Source: Chlamydiota bacterium
Lineage (GTDB): Bacteria > Chlamydiota > Chlamydiia > Chlamydiales > SM23-39
Assembly (NCBI GenBank): GCA_039179045.1
Contig: JBCDEZ010000016.1
Span: 1 to 26,776, forward strand
DNA: 26,776 nt
Direction: 5' to 3'
The position numbers are program-made. Of this stretch, positions 6,001 through 15,000 are shown in pieces. Within the stretch, counting starts at the first letter, position 1, and each line of letters starts with the position of its first letter.

Positions 6001-9000
6001 GATCCAATGTACGGATCGTACCCCGAGTACTTGCGTATGGTGGAGCAAGCGGCTGCTGTGGGCAGTGTAGTGATTGGCGATTTGATCCCTGCCCACAGTG
6101 GCCTTGGCGCCGATTTCCAGCTCGCACTAGCAGGGTATGAAGAGTATCCGGGGATTTATCACATGGTAGAGATTGACCGGCGCGATTGGAGACACCTTCC
6201 CAAAGTAGAAGAAGGCTGGAGCCAAAACCTTACACGCAAGCAAGTCGATTGTCTCCAGAAAAAGGGGTATATTGTAGGCAGTTTGGAAACGACCATTTTT
6301 TTCCATCCCCAGCATAAGGTAAGCAACTGGGATGTTACCAAACCAATACGCGGCGTCGACGGAAAGATGCGACGGTGGGTCTACCTCCACTATTTCAAAT
6401 CCTCACAGCCCTCGTACAACTGGCTCGATCCCTCCTTCGGAGCGCAAAGGATCGCGGGAGGTGATGCCCTTTTTGCTCTTTGTGTTTTGAAAAACCAGAT
6501 TGTGCGTCTCGATGCGAACTCCTTTCTCGGAGTAGAAATCATTGAGTACACGAAAAAAGCTTGGTCAGAGTCTCACCCTTTAGCCATCGATGCGAGCAAC
6601 ACCTTAGCAATGTTGATCCGCAAGTTTGGAGGCTATAGCTTTCAAGAGCTCAACTTGGGCGCCTCATCCCTTGCAGAATTTACCCGCTCTGGTGCGGATC
6701 TTTCCTATGACTTTTTGACGCGCGCTGCATACATCAACGCTTTGATCCATGGCAACTGCGACCTTCTGAAAATTGCCTACCGGCTGATGCAAGAGTGCCA
6801 AATCGACCCAAGAACACTGATCCACGCTTTGCAAAACCATGATGAGCTCAATTACGAGCTAAAATATTTGAAAGAAGTAGAAGGGACTCTCTCCTATCAT
6901 GGAGAATCTTTTTTCGGAACAGATCTACGCAAAAAAATCCAAGAAGAAGATCTCGTTGCTTGCGGAAGCGCGCCCTTTTACAACCATGTGTCCCCTGAAG
7001 GGCTCTGTTCGACTATGGTCGGGATCTGTGCAGGAGCTTTGGGGATAAACAACGTGTACGATATGTCAAAAAAAGAGCGCCAAGATGTAGAAAAAGCGCA
7101 TCTTCTATGCGCCTTTTTCAACGCAATGCAACCGGGTGTATTCGCTATTTCTCTTTGGGACATAGTAGGGGCGCTTCCTCTTCGAAAAAAAGAGAGTGAG
7201 CCGTGGACACAGCAAGATGCCGATCAAAGATGGCATCTGCGGGGAGCAATCGATCTCCTACACTGCTCTGATGCCGCGACATCTTTCGGAGGCTTGCCCA
7301 AAGCAAAAACGCTCTACGCTCCCCTCGCTCGCCAGCTGAAAGATCCCCATTCTTTTGCCTCCAAAGTGCGTAGCTTTCTTCTCGCTCGCAAAAGCTCACA
7401 CCTTGCAAAAGCCGTCTGGCTCGGGGTTTTGCCTACAAAGCATCCGGGGATTTTCGTACTGCTGCACAGGCTGCCTGGAACAGGCGCTCTCCAGATTAGC
7501 GCCTGCAACTTCACAAGCGAACCTATCGAAGAGCGGTTGACCATCCCAGGCATTGAAGATACGTCTGCCCTCAACCTTCTGTCCCGAAAAGCAGAGAAAA
7601 AAGCGTTTCGAGCGAATTATATTGATCTGCTCTTGGCACCTCTTGAAGGGAAGGCTCTTGTTTTTGCGAAGGGGCCGCCGCCTTTAGAAGAATCACTTCC
7701 TGCCGGGAAATGTCCTTCTCATAAGAAATAGTGTCAATGCATCTTGATTCCTCACTGAAAATGCCCTCTGCATCAAAGGAATAAGGCCTTGTTGAAAAAA
7801 TCAGATTTTCTCCCACAAACTTGTTTTTAGCCGCTTTTTTCCAAGGCGGCTATGCTAATCATTGCAAATGCCGCAAGAGCGATCTATGAAAAAAATTATT
7901 TTATTGCTTTGTTTTGATGTCTTCTACCAGGAAACATTCCGCTAAATAAGACAAAATCTTTGGAGTAAGTGAACCTAAGATAATTCCAACGATTAGAAAT
8001 CCCGTATAGAAAAAATGGCTACCCACTTCGATATGTTTTGGCGGGATAAAACCCAAAATAAATGCACAAAAAGAAGTAAAAAAACCGATTCCGGCACAAA
8101 GGCACATGCCTATTTTTCCACCGGGCACAACAAAACTTCTAGGAATATCTGGCTGACAAAACTTCAAACGAATTGCGGCTGCAAACATGAGCATATACAT
8201 AAGAAGATAAAACTGCGTGGTAAGAGAAGTGAGCAACCAAAAAGAGCTGCTGACACTCGGCATAAAAAGGAATAGTAAAGATAAAAAAGTAACGATTATC
8301 CCTTGTAAGAGCATTAGGGCAGTGGGCATTCCGTTGCTGTTCGCTCCGTGCAAGTATACAGGCAAATCCCCATGGTTTGCTGCAGCCAATAATCCTCTAC
8401 TTGGACCTACAATCCAGGTGCTCATTTGCCCAAATGCCCCGATTGCAATCGCGATCGCAATCGGAGGAAGAAAGGCAGATAGGTTGTACGCTCCCAAAAA
8501 TAGGGCAATCGTATCTAACACCCCCGAGACAAAACTGATTTCCGATGGGGGAATAACCATAGCAATAGACAAAGTTCCTAACGCGCTAATGGAAAAAATA
8601 ATAAAACTCGATAGAAAAATCGCTCGAGGATAGTTTTTTTGTGGATCAATGACTTCTTTTGCATGTACAGCAGACATCTCTATTCCTGCAAAAGCAGTGA
8701 GTATTCCTGTAGCGAGAACAAGTTGGTTCAAACTATTGAGTTCTGGAAGAAAAGAACTCCTGGACAGCTCAATTTGTAAAGGAGCATTTGAAAGAAGCCA
8801 GTTCATTCCTAAAATAATGATCAGGAGTCCCGGTACAATTGTCCCAAAAACAACCCCAAAAGTACTGATTTGACTCGACATCTTCATACCTTTTAAATTC
8901 AACCAAGTAGCAAACCAAAATAGAGTTAAAATCATGACCAACATGTAGGTCTTATCTTGGGCAAGATCGGGGTAGAACGAAAATGCTGCCGTAGCCGCTA

Positions 9001-12000: not shown

Positions 12001-15000
12001 TAGTGCACCAAAGACAATCTAACGGCACCATCATTGGGATTGGAGATGCCCACTGCTTCTATTAAACGCCTGGCATAAAAGTGATAATTGGTAGCCGCTA
12101 TCTTTTTTTTAGCTAGTGCCTCAACTATCGCTTTAGAAGATAACTCAGCGTGAGTAAAGGCAAGGTTTGGTCCTCTCTTGTGAGGAATCATCTCTTCAGC
12201 CCCCAAAATACGAATTTTGGGGTGTTTTCTTAAATACTCCAATATTGGATTACACAGATTGATTTCATGCATGTGAAACAAGTCATGGACTTTTTTCACC
12301 TTGTTGTGAAGGCATTCTTCATTTTTACCAAAATGATGCGCGTAGACACGCAGATAATAATCCACGACACCAACAGCTGCAGCAATCTGTTCATATGGAG
12401 GACCGGCAGGCGACCATTTCTTGCGTAAAATATGCTGATTAAAATAATGCCCCTCATTACTCAATCTTTCCAAATGTTCCTGCTTTCCGTACATTAAAGC
12501 TAAATGGGGACCATAAGTTTTGTAAATACTATAACTGTAGAAATCAACATTTAGGTCATTCATATCTAAAGATCCGTGAGGCGCATAAGAGACCCCGTCT
12601 ACAATGAGCATTGCCTTAACATTATGGACATGCTCTCCTATTGTTTTAATATCTTGTATATCTGCAACTACGTTGGAACAATGCGAGCAAAAAACAAACC
12701 TTGTATTTTTATTGAGTAATTTTTTTAAATCATCGACTAGCAACAATCCGGTTTCCGAAGAAACACCCCATTCCCGAACAACAACTCCCATATCAGCCAA
12801 TCTTCTCCAGAAGCCAATATTTGATTCGTGATCCTGATTAGTGACAATGATTTCATCTCCCAACTTTAACTCTTTCCGAAATGCGTTAGCTAAAACGTAA
12901 AAATTCATAGAGGTAGAAATATTAAAAATAATTTCCTGTTTTTTTGCGTTGATGACCTCAGAAAAGAGCGCATAAGCCTCATCTACGGCTGAAGTGGCAG
13001 CAGTGGAAAGCGCGTGGTAAGATCCTGGCTGCACTCGGTGGCTAATTAGGTATTTGTTATACCTTTCTATAACTGGATTAGCCACATAGGAGCCTCCAGC
13101 ATTCTCAAAAAACAACCATTCCCTAGCCGAAGGATCGTGAAAAGCTGGGAACTGTTCCCTGCAAAATTCGACATCTAATACTTTCTTTTTATCCAATACT
13201 GCACTCATGTAGTATCTCCTTGTTTGGAATCAATTTTTCTGCTGTTGGTTCCGCGTGTTTATAACCTAGTTTTCGAACGTGATTAGTTGTTCTTTTAATA
13301 GACGCATTCTCTTGTTTTTCTAAAGCAAACATAAACAAGACATCTGGCGGAAGTCCATAATCTATATCAAGCGTGTCATACAATTTTTCTGCTTTTTTTC
13401 TTACGATATCCAAGTAATCATCGTCAGACAAAATTCCTATGGGTAGGGAAAGCTGATGCTCATATGAACTGCCTTGAAAGTGTCGTACATACTCTTCAAT
13501 TGAATCATTTTTATTTTTGACCTGAATCAACTCTCGATGCGGTTTGAAGTACTGAAAGAATGGGGACGTGCAATCCTCTTCGGTATTCGTGATTAAGTCT
13601 GCCATGTATTGCGCCATAACAGGAGATTGATGAAATCCATCACGGTAAGTACCAGTCATAATGAATAAATTTTTGATTTTTGATGGGCCAATTAATGGAA
13701 AAGAATCGAGAGTAGCAGGCCTATTGCCCACGGAAAATCCTCGCATATACGAACTGCATAACTTCTGATCGATCTGTTCCAAAGAACATTCCATGAGAAA
13801 ATTGAACATACCCATTTTCGGATCTTTGTGAGGTGCAAAGGCCAAATCATTAGAAGCTCCTATGTAAAGAGAATTTCCTTCTCTAGGTAAAACGTGTAGT
13901 CCACAAGCACCTGCTCTGTTTGGAGTGCGGATTGCATGTGTAATGGGTTTGTTTTTATTTTGTTCCACCAAAATGGAATACCCAACACCAGACAATACCA
14001 TAGGCATGCTGTCACGCAGATCTGTCATTTTATCAATCAATGCTTGAGAAAAAGCTCCCGCTGCTAACAAAATTTTTTCTGAATGAATCACTTCACCTGT
14101 TTTCAAAATAAGGGACTTACAAGTTCCATTTTTGCAATCAATATTTTCCGCATGATCATTTACAAAATCCACATTATCCATTTTCCTAAGAATGGTTGTC
14201 ATAGAAGACAAAAGCTCATGGGAGGAAATACAACCCTCGCCCGGCACCCATATTGCGCGTAACGGTCTAGCATCGTGTACCGGATCAATTTCGCCAATTT
14301 CTTTGGGAAGAACCTCTTCGAATGGTTCACTATAAAGATTCAAGGCTTCAATAATGGCGAAAAAATTATCTGTATCCAATTCGCTAGAACGGTTGTTCAG
14401 CAATAAATACGTTCCCGGGTATATCCGCAATTTTTTTGCATCTGGTAAATAATTGTTGATGCTTTCCAGCCAAATAGGCCATTTCTTAAGAGCTTGATGA
14501 CACAGCGCAAATTTTGCCTGGCCAGGTGCGGTGGCAAGCGTCTGTGTTGTCACTTCTGAAAAACAATGCAACATTGCACCAGAAGAAATACTGGCACCAT
14601 TCTTATTCCCCCAGGGCCCTACAATCGCAATCCGAAATTTTGGAAATTTATTGCATAAGGCTAACGCAGTAGATAACCCCATGATACCATTACCAATGAT
14701 CGTTAAATCATAATTTTTCATACACTTACCTGAAAATTTCGAGCGAATTTTGCATTTACACCCCTATTTTATTCAATAAAAATATTTATACCTGAGCACA
14801 ATCAAGCCTCCCACCTCAGCCCAAGTTTTGGATGTCAAATATCTATCAAGGGGAATTGGTAAAATAACTTGCTTTTTTCTTCTGCTCTTCAAAGAATGAA
14901 GTGTGATGGAATAGGTAGAAAAAATGCGCTCAATTGCCCTTGGAATCGTACTCCTGACGCATAGCGCTTTTGCAGTGGAAAACTCGCTTGGCCATTGCTT

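What a model noticed while it worked through the whole genome (the two positions that open the first line are those of the whole stretch)
7901..14721. Orphan N-hydroxy-ornithine gene cluster with a UstD-like PLP enzyme
Six co-oriented genes encode a GadC-like amino-acid antiporter, an arginase, an L-ornithine N5-monooxygenase, a 156-aa Cys-rich protein without named relatives, a PLP enzyme closest to fungal UstD/FGM3 C-C bond-forming enzymes and a 510-aa FAD amine oxidase; no NRPS or NIS synthetase is present. I propose that host arginine is imported and turned via N5-hydroxy-ornithine into a small non-ribosomal, non-siderophore amino-acid metabolite that is exported. A biosynthetic cluster of this make-up is undescribed, and secondary metabolism in a 1.3-Mb obligate intracellular bacterium is rare.
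Evidence so far: genes g00562-g00567; Swiss-Prot best hits: lpg1691/GadC 43%, RocF 39%, PvdA 30%, FGM3 37%/UstD 30%, DadA 21%. g00563, g00564, g00565 and g00567 have no homologue in the congener G001, g00566 only a 24% paralogue; the antiporter g00562 has an 82% homologue there, at another place. An embedding search puts g00565 nearest unnamed clusters and, at 0.89, a YkgJ-type CxxCxxCC cysteine-cluster family. The monooxygenase has matches in 2 of 400 other Chlamydiales at 27-28% identity; in 5.8 billion proteins only three relatives above 40% identity, all unnamed metagenome proteins, next best 33%.
(Added by a program. Inside this text positions count along the whole contig: contig position 1 is position 1 of the stretch shown here. 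"Call 12" and the like, gene names such as g00115 and contig names such as C1 are that model's own, and its searches are not shown. The text may have been shortened before it was handed on; [...] marks where a part breaks off. The agent that wrote the report below was given it as the finding of a first reader that could run no searches.)

Follow-up and report, generated by a model that had tools for sequence, protein, structure and literature searches.

The report
Foreign arginine-to-modified-ornithine operon
A small intracellular bacterium carries a foreign six-gene operon that probably turns imported arginine into an unusual N-hydroxylated, glycine-decorated ornithine derivative without any peptide synthetase; the product is unknown.

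Summary
The six co-oriented genes are real. They form one tightly coupled minus-strand operon at 7901-14721, with junction overlaps of 20, 4, 8 and 4 nt and one 5-nt gap. It is the lowest-GC stretch of the genome (0.398 against 0.463).

The main correction concerns the "FAD amine oxidase". It is a clear homologue of the Orf1/Fms14 N-formimidoyl (iminoacetyl) synthases (PDB 7xqa/8gri, E 2e-78). The reactive Cys, the His/Tyr dyad and both glycine-binding Arg are conserved.

- **PLP enzyme:** closest to FGM3 (E 5e-72), a Cβ-Cγ retro-aldol lyase, then UstD. It lacks the desulfurase cysteine.
- **156-aa protein:** it belongs to a widespread unnamed family with 8 Cys and 2 His, found at 72 metagenome loci. 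It has no Pfam match and no solved fold match, and its neighbours vary.
- **Synthetases:** no NRPS condensation or IucA/IucC domain in the 88%-complete genome.
- **Relatives:** other metagenome contigs carry the monooxygenase with the small protein (two contigs) or with the flavoenzyme (one).
- **Antiporter:** a native gene. Its orthologue in the congener lies at a different locus.

Best reading: Arg → Orn → N5-hydroxy-Orn, then glycine-derived amidine transfer and a PLP-enamine C-C step, then export. The product and the order of steps are inferred.

The parts
13189..14721 (-). First gene: 510-aa flavoenzyme, a homologue of the Orf1/Fms14 N-formimidoyl (iminoacetyl) synthases. It has a glycine-oxidase-like FAD domain plus an extra C-terminal domain.
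   Evidence: PDB 8gri/7xqa 'N-formimidoyl fortimicin A synthase', E 2e-78, aligned over query residues 5-468. Orf1 residues C281, H284, Y294, R342 and R368 correspond to query C273, H276, Y286, R334 and R360 (read from the alignment against PMC10156733 section 7). H276, Y286, R334 and R360 are invariant and C273 is at least 90% conserved in 19 clade members. Pfam DAO 4e-36.
11946..13208 (-). 420-aa class-V PLP enzyme of the FGM3/UstD subfamily, which does Cβ-Cγ bond chemistry through a PLP enamine. It is not a cysteine desulfurase.
   Evidence: PDB FGM3 9x4u, E 5e-72 over residues 12-419; UstD 7mkv, 9e-44. The PLP lysine lies in YKTYGPH, aligned to FGM3 YKVYGPH and UstD YKLFGPH. The SufS active-site Cys loop is replaced by NYHFYA. 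TIGR01976 scores 279 bits, below its cut-off of 352.
11479..11949 (-). 156-aa protein of an unnamed family with eight conserved Cys and two conserved His. Probably metal-binding; role unknown.
   Evidence: No Pfam family for it or for any of 45 family members at E<=1. AlphaFold model: pLDDT 84.5, pTM 0.81. No Foldseek match at E<=0.001; best VIA-align Z 2.4. 72 metagenome loci encode relatives.
10197..11486 (-). 429-aa flavin N-hydroxylase of the SidA/PvdA/KtzI/MbtG family; proposed L-ornithine N5-monooxygenase.
   Evidence: Pfam PF13434, 263 bits. PDB: MbtG 1.5e-50, KtzI 1.6e-41, PvdA 3.5e-40. The dinucleotide motifs GVGFGPSN and VIGGSQSSAE can be read. The ATG at 11486 matches the 429-aa database form P0001.
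9307..10191 (-). 294-aa arginase-family hydrolase; proposed arginase (L-Arg to L-Orn + urea).
   Evidence: Pfam Arginase 6.5e-56. The best PDB hits are bacterial arginases, 5e-44. The motifs GGDHS, DAHMDAH, SLDMDVLDP and SGNIHGMP are present. TIGR01229 scores 182 bits, below its cut-off of 227.6.
7901..9310 (-). 469-aa APC-superfamily amino-acid antiporter (GadC/TyrP-like). Last gene; its start overlaps the arginase stop by 4 nt.
   Evidence: PF13520 5e-62. TIGR03813 scores 454 bits, below its cut-off of 650. ATGA overlap. The 82-83% orthologue in congener G102 lies at a locus syntenic with G000 contig C17, where G000 has no copy.
14722..14923 (.). 202-nt divergent intergenic region upstream of the first gene; presumed promoter region of the operon.
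   Evidence: Position only. The consensus promoter scan found no more sites than shuffled sequence: 17 against 18.9 expected.

Best explanation
This is a horizontally acquired, translationally coupled operon for a small amino-acid natural product made without an NRPS or NIS synthetase.

Proposed route (every step is inferred from family membership; none was shown by experiment):
1. An APC antiporter brings in host arginine.
2. The arginase releases L-ornithine.
3. The SidA/PvdA-type flavoenzyme makes N5-hydroxy-L-ornithine.
4. The Orf1/Fms14-type flavoenzyme oxidises glycine. Through its conserved cysteine it passes the glycine-derived C-N unit, as a formimidoyl or iminoacetyl group, to a nitrogen of the ornithine-derived intermediate. 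The most likely acceptor is the nucleophilic N5-hydroxylamine, which would give an N-hydroxy-amidine that mimics arginine.
5. The FGM3/UstD-type PLP enzyme makes or breaks a Cβ-Cγ bond through a PLP-bound alanine enamine. It could add an aspartate/alanine-derived three-carbon amino-acid unit to an imine or nitrone electrophile, as KpbH does. Or it could trim the side chain, as FGM3 does.
6. The product leaves through the antiporter.

The 8-Cys protein is an accessory metal or redox protein of unknown role.
For: Operon and origin:
- Six intact ORFs with overlapping stops and starts.
- Lowest-GC 5.4-kb stretch of the genome: 0.398 against a mean of 0.469 (sd 0.018). Only 3 of 1917 windows are as low, and all three lie in this cluster.
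- Not found in the congener.

Enzymes:
- Arginase: metal-ligand motifs and the arginase-type SGNIHGMP motif are present.
- Monooxygenase: full-length member of PF13434. Its best solved relatives are amino-acid N-hydroxylases (MbtG, KtzI, PvdA, SidA), ahead of diamine hydroxylases.
- FAD enzyme: E 2e-78 to Orf1-type synthases. C281, H284, Y294, R342 and R368 are all conserved (mechanism from PMC10156733, sections 4 and 7 read). The acidic acceptor-site residues E312/E313 of Orf1 align to G304/M305, with H298, K299 and K302 nearby. That fits a non-aminoglycoside, possibly carboxylate-bearing acceptor (my reading; weak).
- PLP enzyme: FGM3 E 5e-72, with the Tyr after the PLP lysine shared with FGM3.

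What the PLP relatives do:
- FGM3 cleaves 4-hydroxy-arginine into guanidinoacetaldehyde and alanine (passages of PMC10967133 and bioRxiv 10.1101/2023.03.21.533663).
- KpbH, which is 47% identical to UstD, couples aspartate with ornithine-derived P5C in a cluster that also holds an arginase (PMC13741828, part 1 of 3 read). This is a precedent for pairing an arginase with a UstD-like enzyme.

Conservation elsewhere (equal contig lengths, one contig per protein):
- Monooxygenase relatives P0002 and P0003 share contigs of 20924 and 4232 nt with small-protein relatives P0123 and P0124.
- P0004 shares the 38907-nt contig with FAD-enzyme relative P0131.

No synthetase: 0 IucA/IucC and 0 Condensation matches in the genome.
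Against: - No product, activity or transcript is known; no RNA holder was listed.
- Substrates of all enzymes are inferred. The monooxygenase's best solved relative is a lysine hydroxylase (MbtG).
- The arginase, antiporter and PLP enzyme all score below the cut-offs of their NCBIfam equivalogs.
- The direction and substrate of the PLP step are open. FGM3 needs a γ-hydroxyl, and no C-hydroxylase is present.
- The antiporter is a native gene also present in a congener that lacks the pathway, so its link to the product is weak.
- The FAD-enzyme family occurs in other contexts: beside sugar-nucleotide genes, beside an ATP-grasp gene, and standing alone. The acceptor therefore cannot be read from the family.
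- The small protein's 71 other metagenome loci lack the other genes.
- 12% of the genome is missing.
Confidence: 0.55

Rival explanations
1. It is a siderophore pathway, either a remnant or a minimal one. The N-hydroxylase and a C1 donor would make an N5-formyl/formimidoyl-N5-hydroxyornithine hydroxamate-type iron ligand. That ligand would then be assembled by a synthetase on unassembled DNA, or used as a monomeric or C-C-linked chelator.
For: PF13434 enzymes are mostly siderophore enzymes, and nearly all named relatives carry the SidA/IucD/PvdA label. An N-hydroxy-amidine or its hydrolysed formyl form would chelate iron (inference). The genome is only 88.27% complete.
Against: No IucA/IucC and no Condensation domain in the genome. 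The window shows 7.9 kb and 12 kb of flanks with no synthetase, acyltransferase or receptor. The monooxygenase clade is separated from the siderophore enzymes: 43-44% identity within the clade, at most 34% to the rest. The Orf1-type and FGM3-type enzymes have no known siderophore role (PMC10156733, PMC10967133).
Confidence: 0.15
2. It is an N-N or other N-heteroatom pathway of the piperazate type. N5-hydroxyornithine, as made by KtzI, would be cyclised or rearranged by a new metalloprotein (the 8-Cys protein) standing in for the haem enzyme KtzT.
For: KtzI is the second-best solved relative of the monooxygenase, at 1.6e-41. The small protein sits directly beside the monooxygenase here and on two other contigs.
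Against: The small protein's family occurs at 71 other metagenome loci without any monooxygenase and with unrelated neighbours. This reading gives no role to the Orf1-type or FGM3-type enzymes. I did not search for KtzT.
Confidence: 0.05
3. It modifies the cell envelope or a macromolecule rather than making a free metabolite. The Orf1-type enzyme would add formimidoyl groups to an amino group of a surface glycan or lipid, and the other genes would supply or recycle substrates.
For: In genome G525 a 35% homologue of the FAD enzyme lies beside WbqC, DegT-type aminotransferase and nucleotidyl-transferase genes, which is a sugar-modification context.
Against: There are no sugar-nucleotide or lipid genes in this operon or its flanks. 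The G525 homologue is the most distant one examined. The other four enzymes act on free amino acids in all characterised relatives.
Confidence: 0.05
4. It is a chance or decaying assemblage with no joint function.
For: No expression data exist. The antiporter has a separate evolutionary origin from the other five genes.
Against: All six frames are intact. Four of five junctions overlap and the fifth is a 5-nt gap. Catalytic residues are conserved. Pairs of the genes recur on three other contigs at 43-59% identity. A 97%-identical strain keeps the PLP, small-protein and monooxygenase genes in the same order (L083).
Confidence: 0.05

Closest known systems
Orf1 (BD-12 streptothricin) and Fms14 (fortimicin) N-formimidoyl/iminoacetyl synthases
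   Same: Same three-domain flavoenzyme: E 2e-78 over about 460 residues, with the conserved Cys for the N-O-S adduct, the His/Tyr dyad and both glycine-binding Arg (PMC10156733).
   Different: The known acceptors are aminoglycosides in actinomycete antibiotic clusters. Here the partners are amino-acid enzymes, and the acidic acceptor-site residues are not conserved. The acceptor is unknown.
Fusaoctaxin guanidinoacetate branch (FGM1 P450, FGM3 PLP lyase, FGM2 amidohydrolase) of Fusarium graminearum
   Same: An arginine-derived pathway whose PLP enzyme is the closest solved relative (E 5e-72), with the PLP lysine and the following Tyr shared (passages of PMC10967133 and bioRxiv 10.1101/2023.03.21.533663).
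   Different: That system is fungal, hydroxylates C4 with a P450 and feeds an NRPS. Here there is N-hydroxylation instead, no C-hydroxylase and no NRPS.
Early kaitocephalin steps (arginase KpbG, ornithine-derived P5C, UstD-like KpbH)
   Same: An arginase is paired with a UstD-family PLP enzyme acting on an ornithine-derived electrophile. The result is a non-peptidic C-C linkage of amino acids (PMC13741828, part 1 of 3 read).
   Different: That system is fungal. Its electrophile is made by ornithine aminotransferase, not by N-hydroxylation, and it has no Orf1-type enzyme.
Hydroxamate siderophore initiation (PvdA/SidA with the formyltransferase PvdF)
   Same: Ornithine N5-hydroxylation is followed by addition of a one-carbon unit at N5. 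PvdF's role is recalled, not taken from a call.
   Different: Here the C1 donor would be glycine through a flavoenzyme, not formyl-tetrahydrofolate, and no synthetase was found.
Natural arginine antimetabolites N5-(1-iminoethyl)-L-ornithine and N5-hydroxy-L-arginine
   Same: These are N5-amidine or N5-hydroxy ornithine derivatives of the kind predicted here. Both compounds are recalled from memory; no call or paper was read for them.
   Different: I know of no biosynthetic genes for them, so no sequence comparison is possible.

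Membership tests
Orf1/Fms14 N-formimidoyl (iminoacetyl) synthase | Glycine-oxidase-like FAD domain plus an extra C-terminal domain of about 100 residues | tested here: met
   Pfam DAO 4e-36 over residues 5-376. The alignment to 8gri continues to query residue 468 of 510. 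Ordinary glycine oxidases align only to about residue 382.
Orf1/Fms14 N-formimidoyl (iminoacetyl) synthase | Reactive Cys281 (N-O-S adduct), the His284/Tyr294 dyad, and Arg342/Arg368 that bind glycine | tested here: met
   The query has C273, H276, Y286, R334 and R360 at these positions (numbering from PMC10156733 section 7). In 19 clade members four are invariant and the Cys is at least 90% conserved.
Orf1/Fms14 N-formimidoyl (iminoacetyl) synthase | Glycine-dependent amidine transfer to an amine acceptor | not testable with these tools
   Needs an enzyme assay.
FGM3/UstD-type PLP enzymes (class-V fold) | Aminotran_5 fold with the PLP lysine | tested here: met
   PF00266 4.6e-51. The lysine in YKTYGPH aligns with the FGM3, UstD and SufS lysines.
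FGM3/UstD-type PLP enzymes (class-V fold) | Closer to FGM3/UstD than to cysteine desulfurases, and lacking the desulfurase Cys | tested here: met
   FGM3 5e-72 and UstD 9e-44 against SufS 8e-34, which aligns over the N-terminal 250 residues only. The SufS Cys loop is replaced.
TIGR01976 cysteine desulfurase-like protein (VC1184 type) | Score above the curated cut-off | tested here: not met
   279.4 bits against a cut-off of 352.35.
SidA/PvdA/IucD N-hydroxylating flavin monooxygenases | Full-length PF13434 domain with FAD and NADPH dinucleotide motifs | tested here: met
   263 bits, profile positions 4-338 of 339. GVGFGPSN and VIGGSQSSAE are in the translation.
SidA/PvdA/IucD N-hydroxylating flavin monooxygenases | Specificity for L-ornithine | tested here: inconclusive
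   Solved relatives rank MbtG (Lys) 1.5e-50, KtzI (Orn) 1.6e-41, PvdA (Orn) 3.5e-40. Ornithine is inferred from the adjacent arginase only.
Arginase (TIGR01229 rocF) | Binuclear-Mn ligand motifs and the arginase substrate motif | tested here: met
   GGDHS, DAHMDAH, SLDMDVLDP and SGNIHGMP are read. The assignment of these motifs to metal and substrate binding is recalled.
Arginase (TIGR01229 rocF) | Score above the curated equivalog cut-off | tested here: not met
   181.9 bits against 227.6. The match covers residues 67-283 only.
GadC glutamate/glutamine-GABA antiporter | Score above the curated equivalog cut-off | tested here: not met
   TIGR03813 453.7 bits against 650; NF053662 421.5 against 640. 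APC-superfamily membership is met (PF13520).
YkgJ / UPF0153 (PF03692 CxxCxxCC) | Match to the family profile | tested here: not met
   0 of 45 family members match PF03692 at E<=1. A PF03692 search of the own genome at E<=10 found nothing, while 11 of 14 control genomes rang. The only links are an embedding score of 0.89 and one JGI label, 'Fe-S-cluster containing protein'.
NRPS or NIS siderophore cluster | A condensation-domain or IucA/IucC synthetase | tested here: not met
   0 matches to PF00668 and PF04183 in the 88.27%-complete genome. The two AMP-binding genes lie on other contigs.
Piperazate pathway (KtzI/KtzT) | A KtzT-type haem piperazate synthase next to the N-hydroxylase | not tested
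   No KtzT profile or sequence was searched. None of the six proteins has such an annotation.

The most novel reading that the evidence does not exclude
An obligate intracellular bacterium converts host arginine into an N5-hydroxy-N5-amidino-type ornithine, or a C-C-extended derivative of it. This would be an arginine mimic that is exported to interfere with host or competitor arginine and nitric-oxide metabolism, or to bind metal. It would be the first amino-acid-level use of an Orf1-type glycine-dependent amidine synthase. It would also be the first pathway joining a SidA-type N-hydroxylase to an FGM3/UstD-type PLP C-C enzyme, helped by a metal-binding protein of a new fold.
Probability: 0.2. 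Interest if true: 0.85.

Novelty: new variant of a known kind. Interest (0 to 1): 0.62.

Why it matters
If the reading holds, the operon gives a testable route to a new class of N-oxygenated amidine amino acids built from arginine and glycine without a synthetase. It would extend Orf1-type formimidoyl chemistry from aminoglycosides to amino acids. It would also show FGM3/UstD-type C-C enzymes, so far characterised in fungi, working in a bacterial pathway.

In a 1.3-Mb host-dependent genome, a foreign five-gene pathway fused to a native transporter is likely to serve the host interaction. An arginine-derived mimic would bear on how intracellular bacteria deal with host arginine and nitric oxide.

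Separately, the 8-Cys protein defines a widespread family with no Pfam model and no solved fold match.

Tried and rejected
- **Neighbours of the close monooxygenase relatives.** The tool that fetches their contigs is closed. I could only match contig lengths across three protein searches.
- **Genome collection scan with the monooxygenase alignment.** 190 relatives, best 32% identity. None of the 82 loci then held (80 kept from the scan plus 2 from the own genome) encoded a second cluster protein.
- **Metagenome scan with the small protein.** 72 loci. Only 1, a 97%-identical strain, has cluster genes. The 58 neighbours at 21 loci showed no common partner.
- **Fold of the small protein.** No Foldseek match at E<=0.001 and best VIA-align Z 2.4. 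This does not prove the fold is new.
- **Complex of the monooxygenase with the small protein.** No verdict, score 0.00. I draw no conclusion from it.
- **Expression.** No RNA holder was listed.
- **Promoter and terminator scan.** Not above shuffled background.
- **Island borders.** No flanking direct repeats, and no tRNA or mobility gene at the ends of the cluster.
- **Insertion site.**
  - In the congener, the contigs end right after the left-flank gene and start inside the right-flank gene.
  - The left-flank gene is found in only 1 of 5 family genomes; the right-flank gene in 5 of 5, on another contig.
  - So the event could not be polarised.
- **Literature.**
  - No paper holds 'N-hydroxyornithine', 'arginase' and 'PLP-dependent' together.
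  - The search on formimidoyl, ornithine, hydroxylase and gene cluster gave nothing relevant among the 12 of 239 listed.
  - A search for 'Fgm3' found no structural paper for PDB 9x4u.
  - Supplements were not consulted.
- **Cysteine-desulfurase reading of the PLP enzyme.** Rejected, because the catalytic Cys loop is missing.

Full report
**1. The observation**

| Gene | Coordinates | Length |
|---|---|---|
| FAD enzyme | 13189-14721 | 510 aa |
| class-V PLP enzyme | 11946-13208 | 420 aa |
| Cys-rich protein | 11479-11949 | 156 aa |
| N-monooxygenase | 10197-11486 | 429 aa |
| arginase-family protein | 9307-10191 | 294 aa |
| APC antiporter | 7901-9310 | 469 aa |

The ATG at 11486 gives the 429-aa form held in the protein database; the longer TTG form starts at 11504.

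- The junctions are overlaps of 20, 4 (ATGA) and 8 nt, a 5-nt gap, and a 4-nt ATGA overlap. This is one translationally coupled operon.
- Pfam and NCBIfam confirm the family assignments and give nothing for the small protein.
- The genome is 1,321,158 bases in 79 contigs, 88.27% complete.

**2. Foreign origin**

- The five-gene block 9307-14721 has 0.398 GC, against 0.463 for the genome.
- Among 1917 windows of 5.4 kb (mean 0.469, sd 0.018), only 3 are as low, and all three lie in this cluster.
- GC3 of the six genes is 0.35-0.40.
- The congener G102 (96% complete) has no match to the FAD enzyme, the monooxygenase, the small-protein profile or the arginase. It has no PLP match at E<=1e-40.
- In an even sample of the phylum, the FGM3-like PLP enzyme was found in 0 of 399 other genomes at that threshold.
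- In the same kind of sample, an Orf1-like FAD enzyme was found in 2 of 400 other genomes: G368 at 46% and G139 at 44%. Two further weak matches at 23-27% look like ordinary DAO-family oxidases.
- No repeats, tRNA or mobility genes mark the borders.
- The insertion could not be polarised. G102's contigs break at both flanks, and the left-flank gene is present in only 1 of 5 other family genomes.

**3. The antiporter has a different history**

- G102 carries an 82-83% orthologue on contig C40. The genes around it map in the same order to G000 contig C17.
- At that place G000 has only 214 nt and no transporter.
- So a native gene sits at the end of the foreign operon, with its start overlapping the arginase stop.
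- It is more similar to its G102 orthologue (82%) than the ten flanking orthologue pairs I could compare (27-74%).
- Its GC (0.40) is below that of its two paralogues in G000 (0.45 and 0.47).
- I cannot tell whether it was relocated within G000 or arrived with the block from a related lineage.

**4. Re-annotation of the FAD enzyme (the main new result)**

- Against solved structures it matches 'N-formimidoyl fortimicin A synthase' entries 8gri, 7xqa and others at E 2e-78 over residues 5-468.
- Ordinary glycine oxidases reach only 7e-15, and only to about residue 382.
- These entries are Orf1 of the BD-12 pathway (PMC10156733; outline and sections 4 and 7 read).
  - Orf1 oxidises glycine at the flavin.
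  - It holds the product on Cys281 through an N-O-S link in a second site.
  - It transfers the product to an amine as an N-formimidoyl group (after decarboxylation) or an N-iminoacetyl group.
- Counting along the alignment (chain number = native + 21), Orf1 C281, H284, Y294, R342 and R368 fall on query C273, H276, Y286, R334 and R360. All are identical.
- In an alignment of 19 clade members, H276, Y286, R334 and R360 are invariant and C273 is at least 90% conserved.
- The acceptor-site acids E312/E313 of Orf1 align to G304/M305, with H298, K299 and K302 nearby. The acceptor is therefore not an aminoglycoside. A carboxylate-bearing acceptor is my inference only.
- The family is large: 685 proteins at E<=0.001 among 7765 candidates.
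- The named sources at 41-45% identity include Candidatus Paracaedibacter symbiosus, Candidatus Odyssella acanthamoebae and a Rickettsiales MAG.
- Its genomic contexts differ from genome to genome:

| Genome | Neighbours of the FAD-enzyme homologue |
|---|---|
| G368 | an Asp/Arg-hydroxylase-like oxygenase and a weak GNAT match |
| G139 | a PGM1-like ATP-grasp ligase and an EamA transporter |
| G525 | WbqC, a DegT aminotransferase and a nucleotidyl transferase |
| G680 | no evident partner |

**5. The PLP enzyme**

- The closest solved relatives are FGM3 (9x4u, E 5e-72, residues 12-419) and UstD (7mkv, 9e-44). SufS-type desulfurases match only over the first 250 residues.
- The PLP lysine is conserved. 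The following residue pattern (YKTYGPH) matches FGM3 (YKVYGPH) rather than UstD (YKLFGPH). The desulfurase Cys loop is absent.
- FGM3 cleaves the Cβ-Cγ bond of 4-hydroxy-L-arginine to guanidinoacetaldehyde and L-alanine (passages of PMC10967133).
- The Tyr next to the lysine was proposed as FGM3's general base from a model (passages of bioRxiv 10.1101/2023.03.21.533663).
- UstD runs the related decarboxylative aldol.
- KpbH, 47% identical to UstD, runs a decarboxylative Mannich addition of aspartate to ornithine-derived pyrroline-5-carboxylate, in a cluster that also encodes an arginase (PMC13741828, part 1 of 3 read).
- The subfamily's shared trait is a PLP-bound alanine enamine that forms or breaks the Cβ-Cγ bond.
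- The nearest relatives in 1.84 billion representatives are 48% (a Coxiellaceae MAG) and 45% (a Pseudomonadota MAG).

**6. Monooxygenase and arginase**

- The monooxygenase is a full-length PF13434 protein with both dinucleotide motifs.
- Its solved relatives rank MbtG, KtzI, PvdA and SidA, all amino-acid hydroxylases, ahead of diamine hydroxylases. Ornithine rather than lysine is inferred only from the adjacent arginase.
- It has three close relatives (43-44%). Everything else is at most 34%.
- In one genome per species of the genome collection, the best relative was 32%.
- The arginase carries the metal-ligand motifs and the arginase-type SGNIHGMP stretch, though it scores below the TIGR01229 cut-off.

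**7. The small protein**

- It is not an orphan. The protein search found 8 relatives, and a metagenome scan found 72 loci at 32-97% identity.
- Only one of those loci, a 97%-identical strain, has cluster genes beside it.
- The 58 neighbours at 21 longer loci share nothing: radical SAM, ATP-grasp, 2OG oxygenase, PAPS reductase, HTH regulators, integrase, transposase and others.
- Eight Cys and two His are invariant or nearly so.
- None of 45 members matches any Pfam family convincingly at E<=1, and none matches PF03692. A PF03692 search of the own genome at E<=10 is empty.
- The AlphaFold model is confident (pLDDT 84.5, pTM 0.81), yet it has no Foldseek match at E<=0.001, and its best VIA-align Z is 2.4.
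- The YkgJ link rests on an embedding score of 0.89 and one JGI label.
- I take it as a metal-binding accessory protein of unknown role.

**8. Is the set conserved elsewhere?**

| Contig | Monooxygenase relative | Co-located relative |
|---|---|---|
| 20924 nt | P0002 | small-protein relative P0123 |
| 4232 nt | P0003 | small-protein relative P0124 |
| 38907 nt | P0004 | FAD-enzyme relative P0131 (54%) |

- The contigs themselves could not be fetched.
- This supports a recurring core but does not show all five genes together anywhere else.

**9. How it most likely works**

Every step below is inferred from family membership and conserved residues.

1. Arginine is imported.
2. The arginase gives ornithine.
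3. The monooxygenase gives N5-hydroxyornithine.
4. The Orf1-type enzyme oxidises glycine and transfers a formimidoyl or iminoacetyl unit to a nitrogen of the intermediate. The hydroxylamine nitrogen is the best nucleophile. The product would be an N-hydroxy-amidine resembling N5-hydroxyarginine without one amino group.
5. The PLP enzyme either adds an aspartate/alanine-derived unit to an imine or nitrone electrophile (the KpbH/UstD direction) or cleaves a side chain (the FGM3 direction).
6. The product is exported.

- I hold the general scheme, a synthetase-free modified ornithine built from Arg and Gly, at about 0.55.
- Any single product structure is well below that.
- The main weakness is the PLP step. 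FGM3 needs a γ-hydroxyl and no C-hydroxylase is present, while sequence similarity favours FGM3 over UstD.

**10. Rivals**

- A siderophore remnant or minimal hydroxamate chelator (0.15) fits the monooxygenase family. However, no synthetase domain exists in the genome, none lies in 20 kb of flanks, and 12% of the genome is unseen.
- A piperazate-like N-N route, an envelope formimidoylation role and a non-functional assemblage each get about 0.05, for the reasons given in their sections.

**11. Novelty and literature**

- No paper in the library holds 'N-hydroxyornithine', 'arginase' and 'PLP-dependent' together. Nothing relevant appeared for formimidoyl with ornithine and hydroxylase among the 12 of 239 papers listed.
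Passages of PMC9666466 state that biosynthetic clusters are widespread across Chlamydiae, though absent from some families. Its main text has no occurrence of 'siderophore', 'monooxygenase' or 'arginase'. Its supplements were not read.
- The natural arginine mimics N5-(1-iminoethyl)-ornithine and N5-hydroxyarginine are recalled from memory, not from a call.
- I rate the cluster a new variant of a known kind. The enzyme families are known, the combination is undescribed, and the host is unusual.

Noticed in passing
window 11479-11949; loci L083-L154: The 156-aa Cys-rich protein defines a widespread family with 72 metagenome loci. It has eight conserved Cys and two conserved His, no Pfam model, a confident AlphaFold model with no solved structural match, and no constant gene neighbour.
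   Followed up: partly
L174 (G525:C6) 9882-11324 and neighbours: A 35% homologue of the Orf1-type flavoenzyme lies beside WbqC-like, DegT-type aminotransferase and nucleotidyl-transferase genes. This suggests formimidoylation of an amino sugar.
   Followed up: partly
L160 (G368:C177) and L161 (G139:C66): Two other genomes of the same phylum carry 44-46% homologues of the flavoenzyme on short contigs. One is beside an Asp/Arg-hydroxylase-like oxygenase and a weak GNAT match. The other is beside a PGM1-like ATP-grasp ligase and an EamA transporter. These may be further small amino-acid or peptide pathways.
   Followed up: partly
window 7901-9310 against L168 (G102:C40) 2152-3627: The antiporter is 82% identical to its congener orthologue, whereas ten flanking orthologue pairs are 27-74% identical. 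Its GC (0.40) is below that of its own paralogues (0.45, 0.47). This may mean recent exchange between related lineages.
   Followed up: partly
window 15-1622: A 535-aa protein has a ubiquitin carboxyl-terminal hydrolase (UCH) domain at its C-terminus (Pfam 3e-09). This looks like a eukaryote-like deubiquitinase, a possible host-directed effector.
   Followed up: no
window 25137-26708: A 523-aa minus-strand ORF with no Pfam or NCBIfam family lies in a second low-GC stretch (0.38-0.40).
   Followed up: no
window 5593-7731: A 712-aa protein matches the TreS_stutzeri-type maltose alpha-D-glucosyltransferase model (639 bits, cut-off 719). It is present in the congener but in only 1 of 5 other family genomes searched.
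   Followed up: partly
window 22338-22412 and 19757-22408: A tRNA-Arg (tct) overlaps the listed TTG start of the 883-aa ORF, so the true start of that gene must lie further downstream.
   Followed up: no
P0253/P0415: Two adjacent genes of the sponge Sycon ciliatum encode proteins about 40% identical to the PLP enzyme. The FGM3/UstD-like family therefore reaches animals, or reflects transfer or contamination.
   Followed up: no
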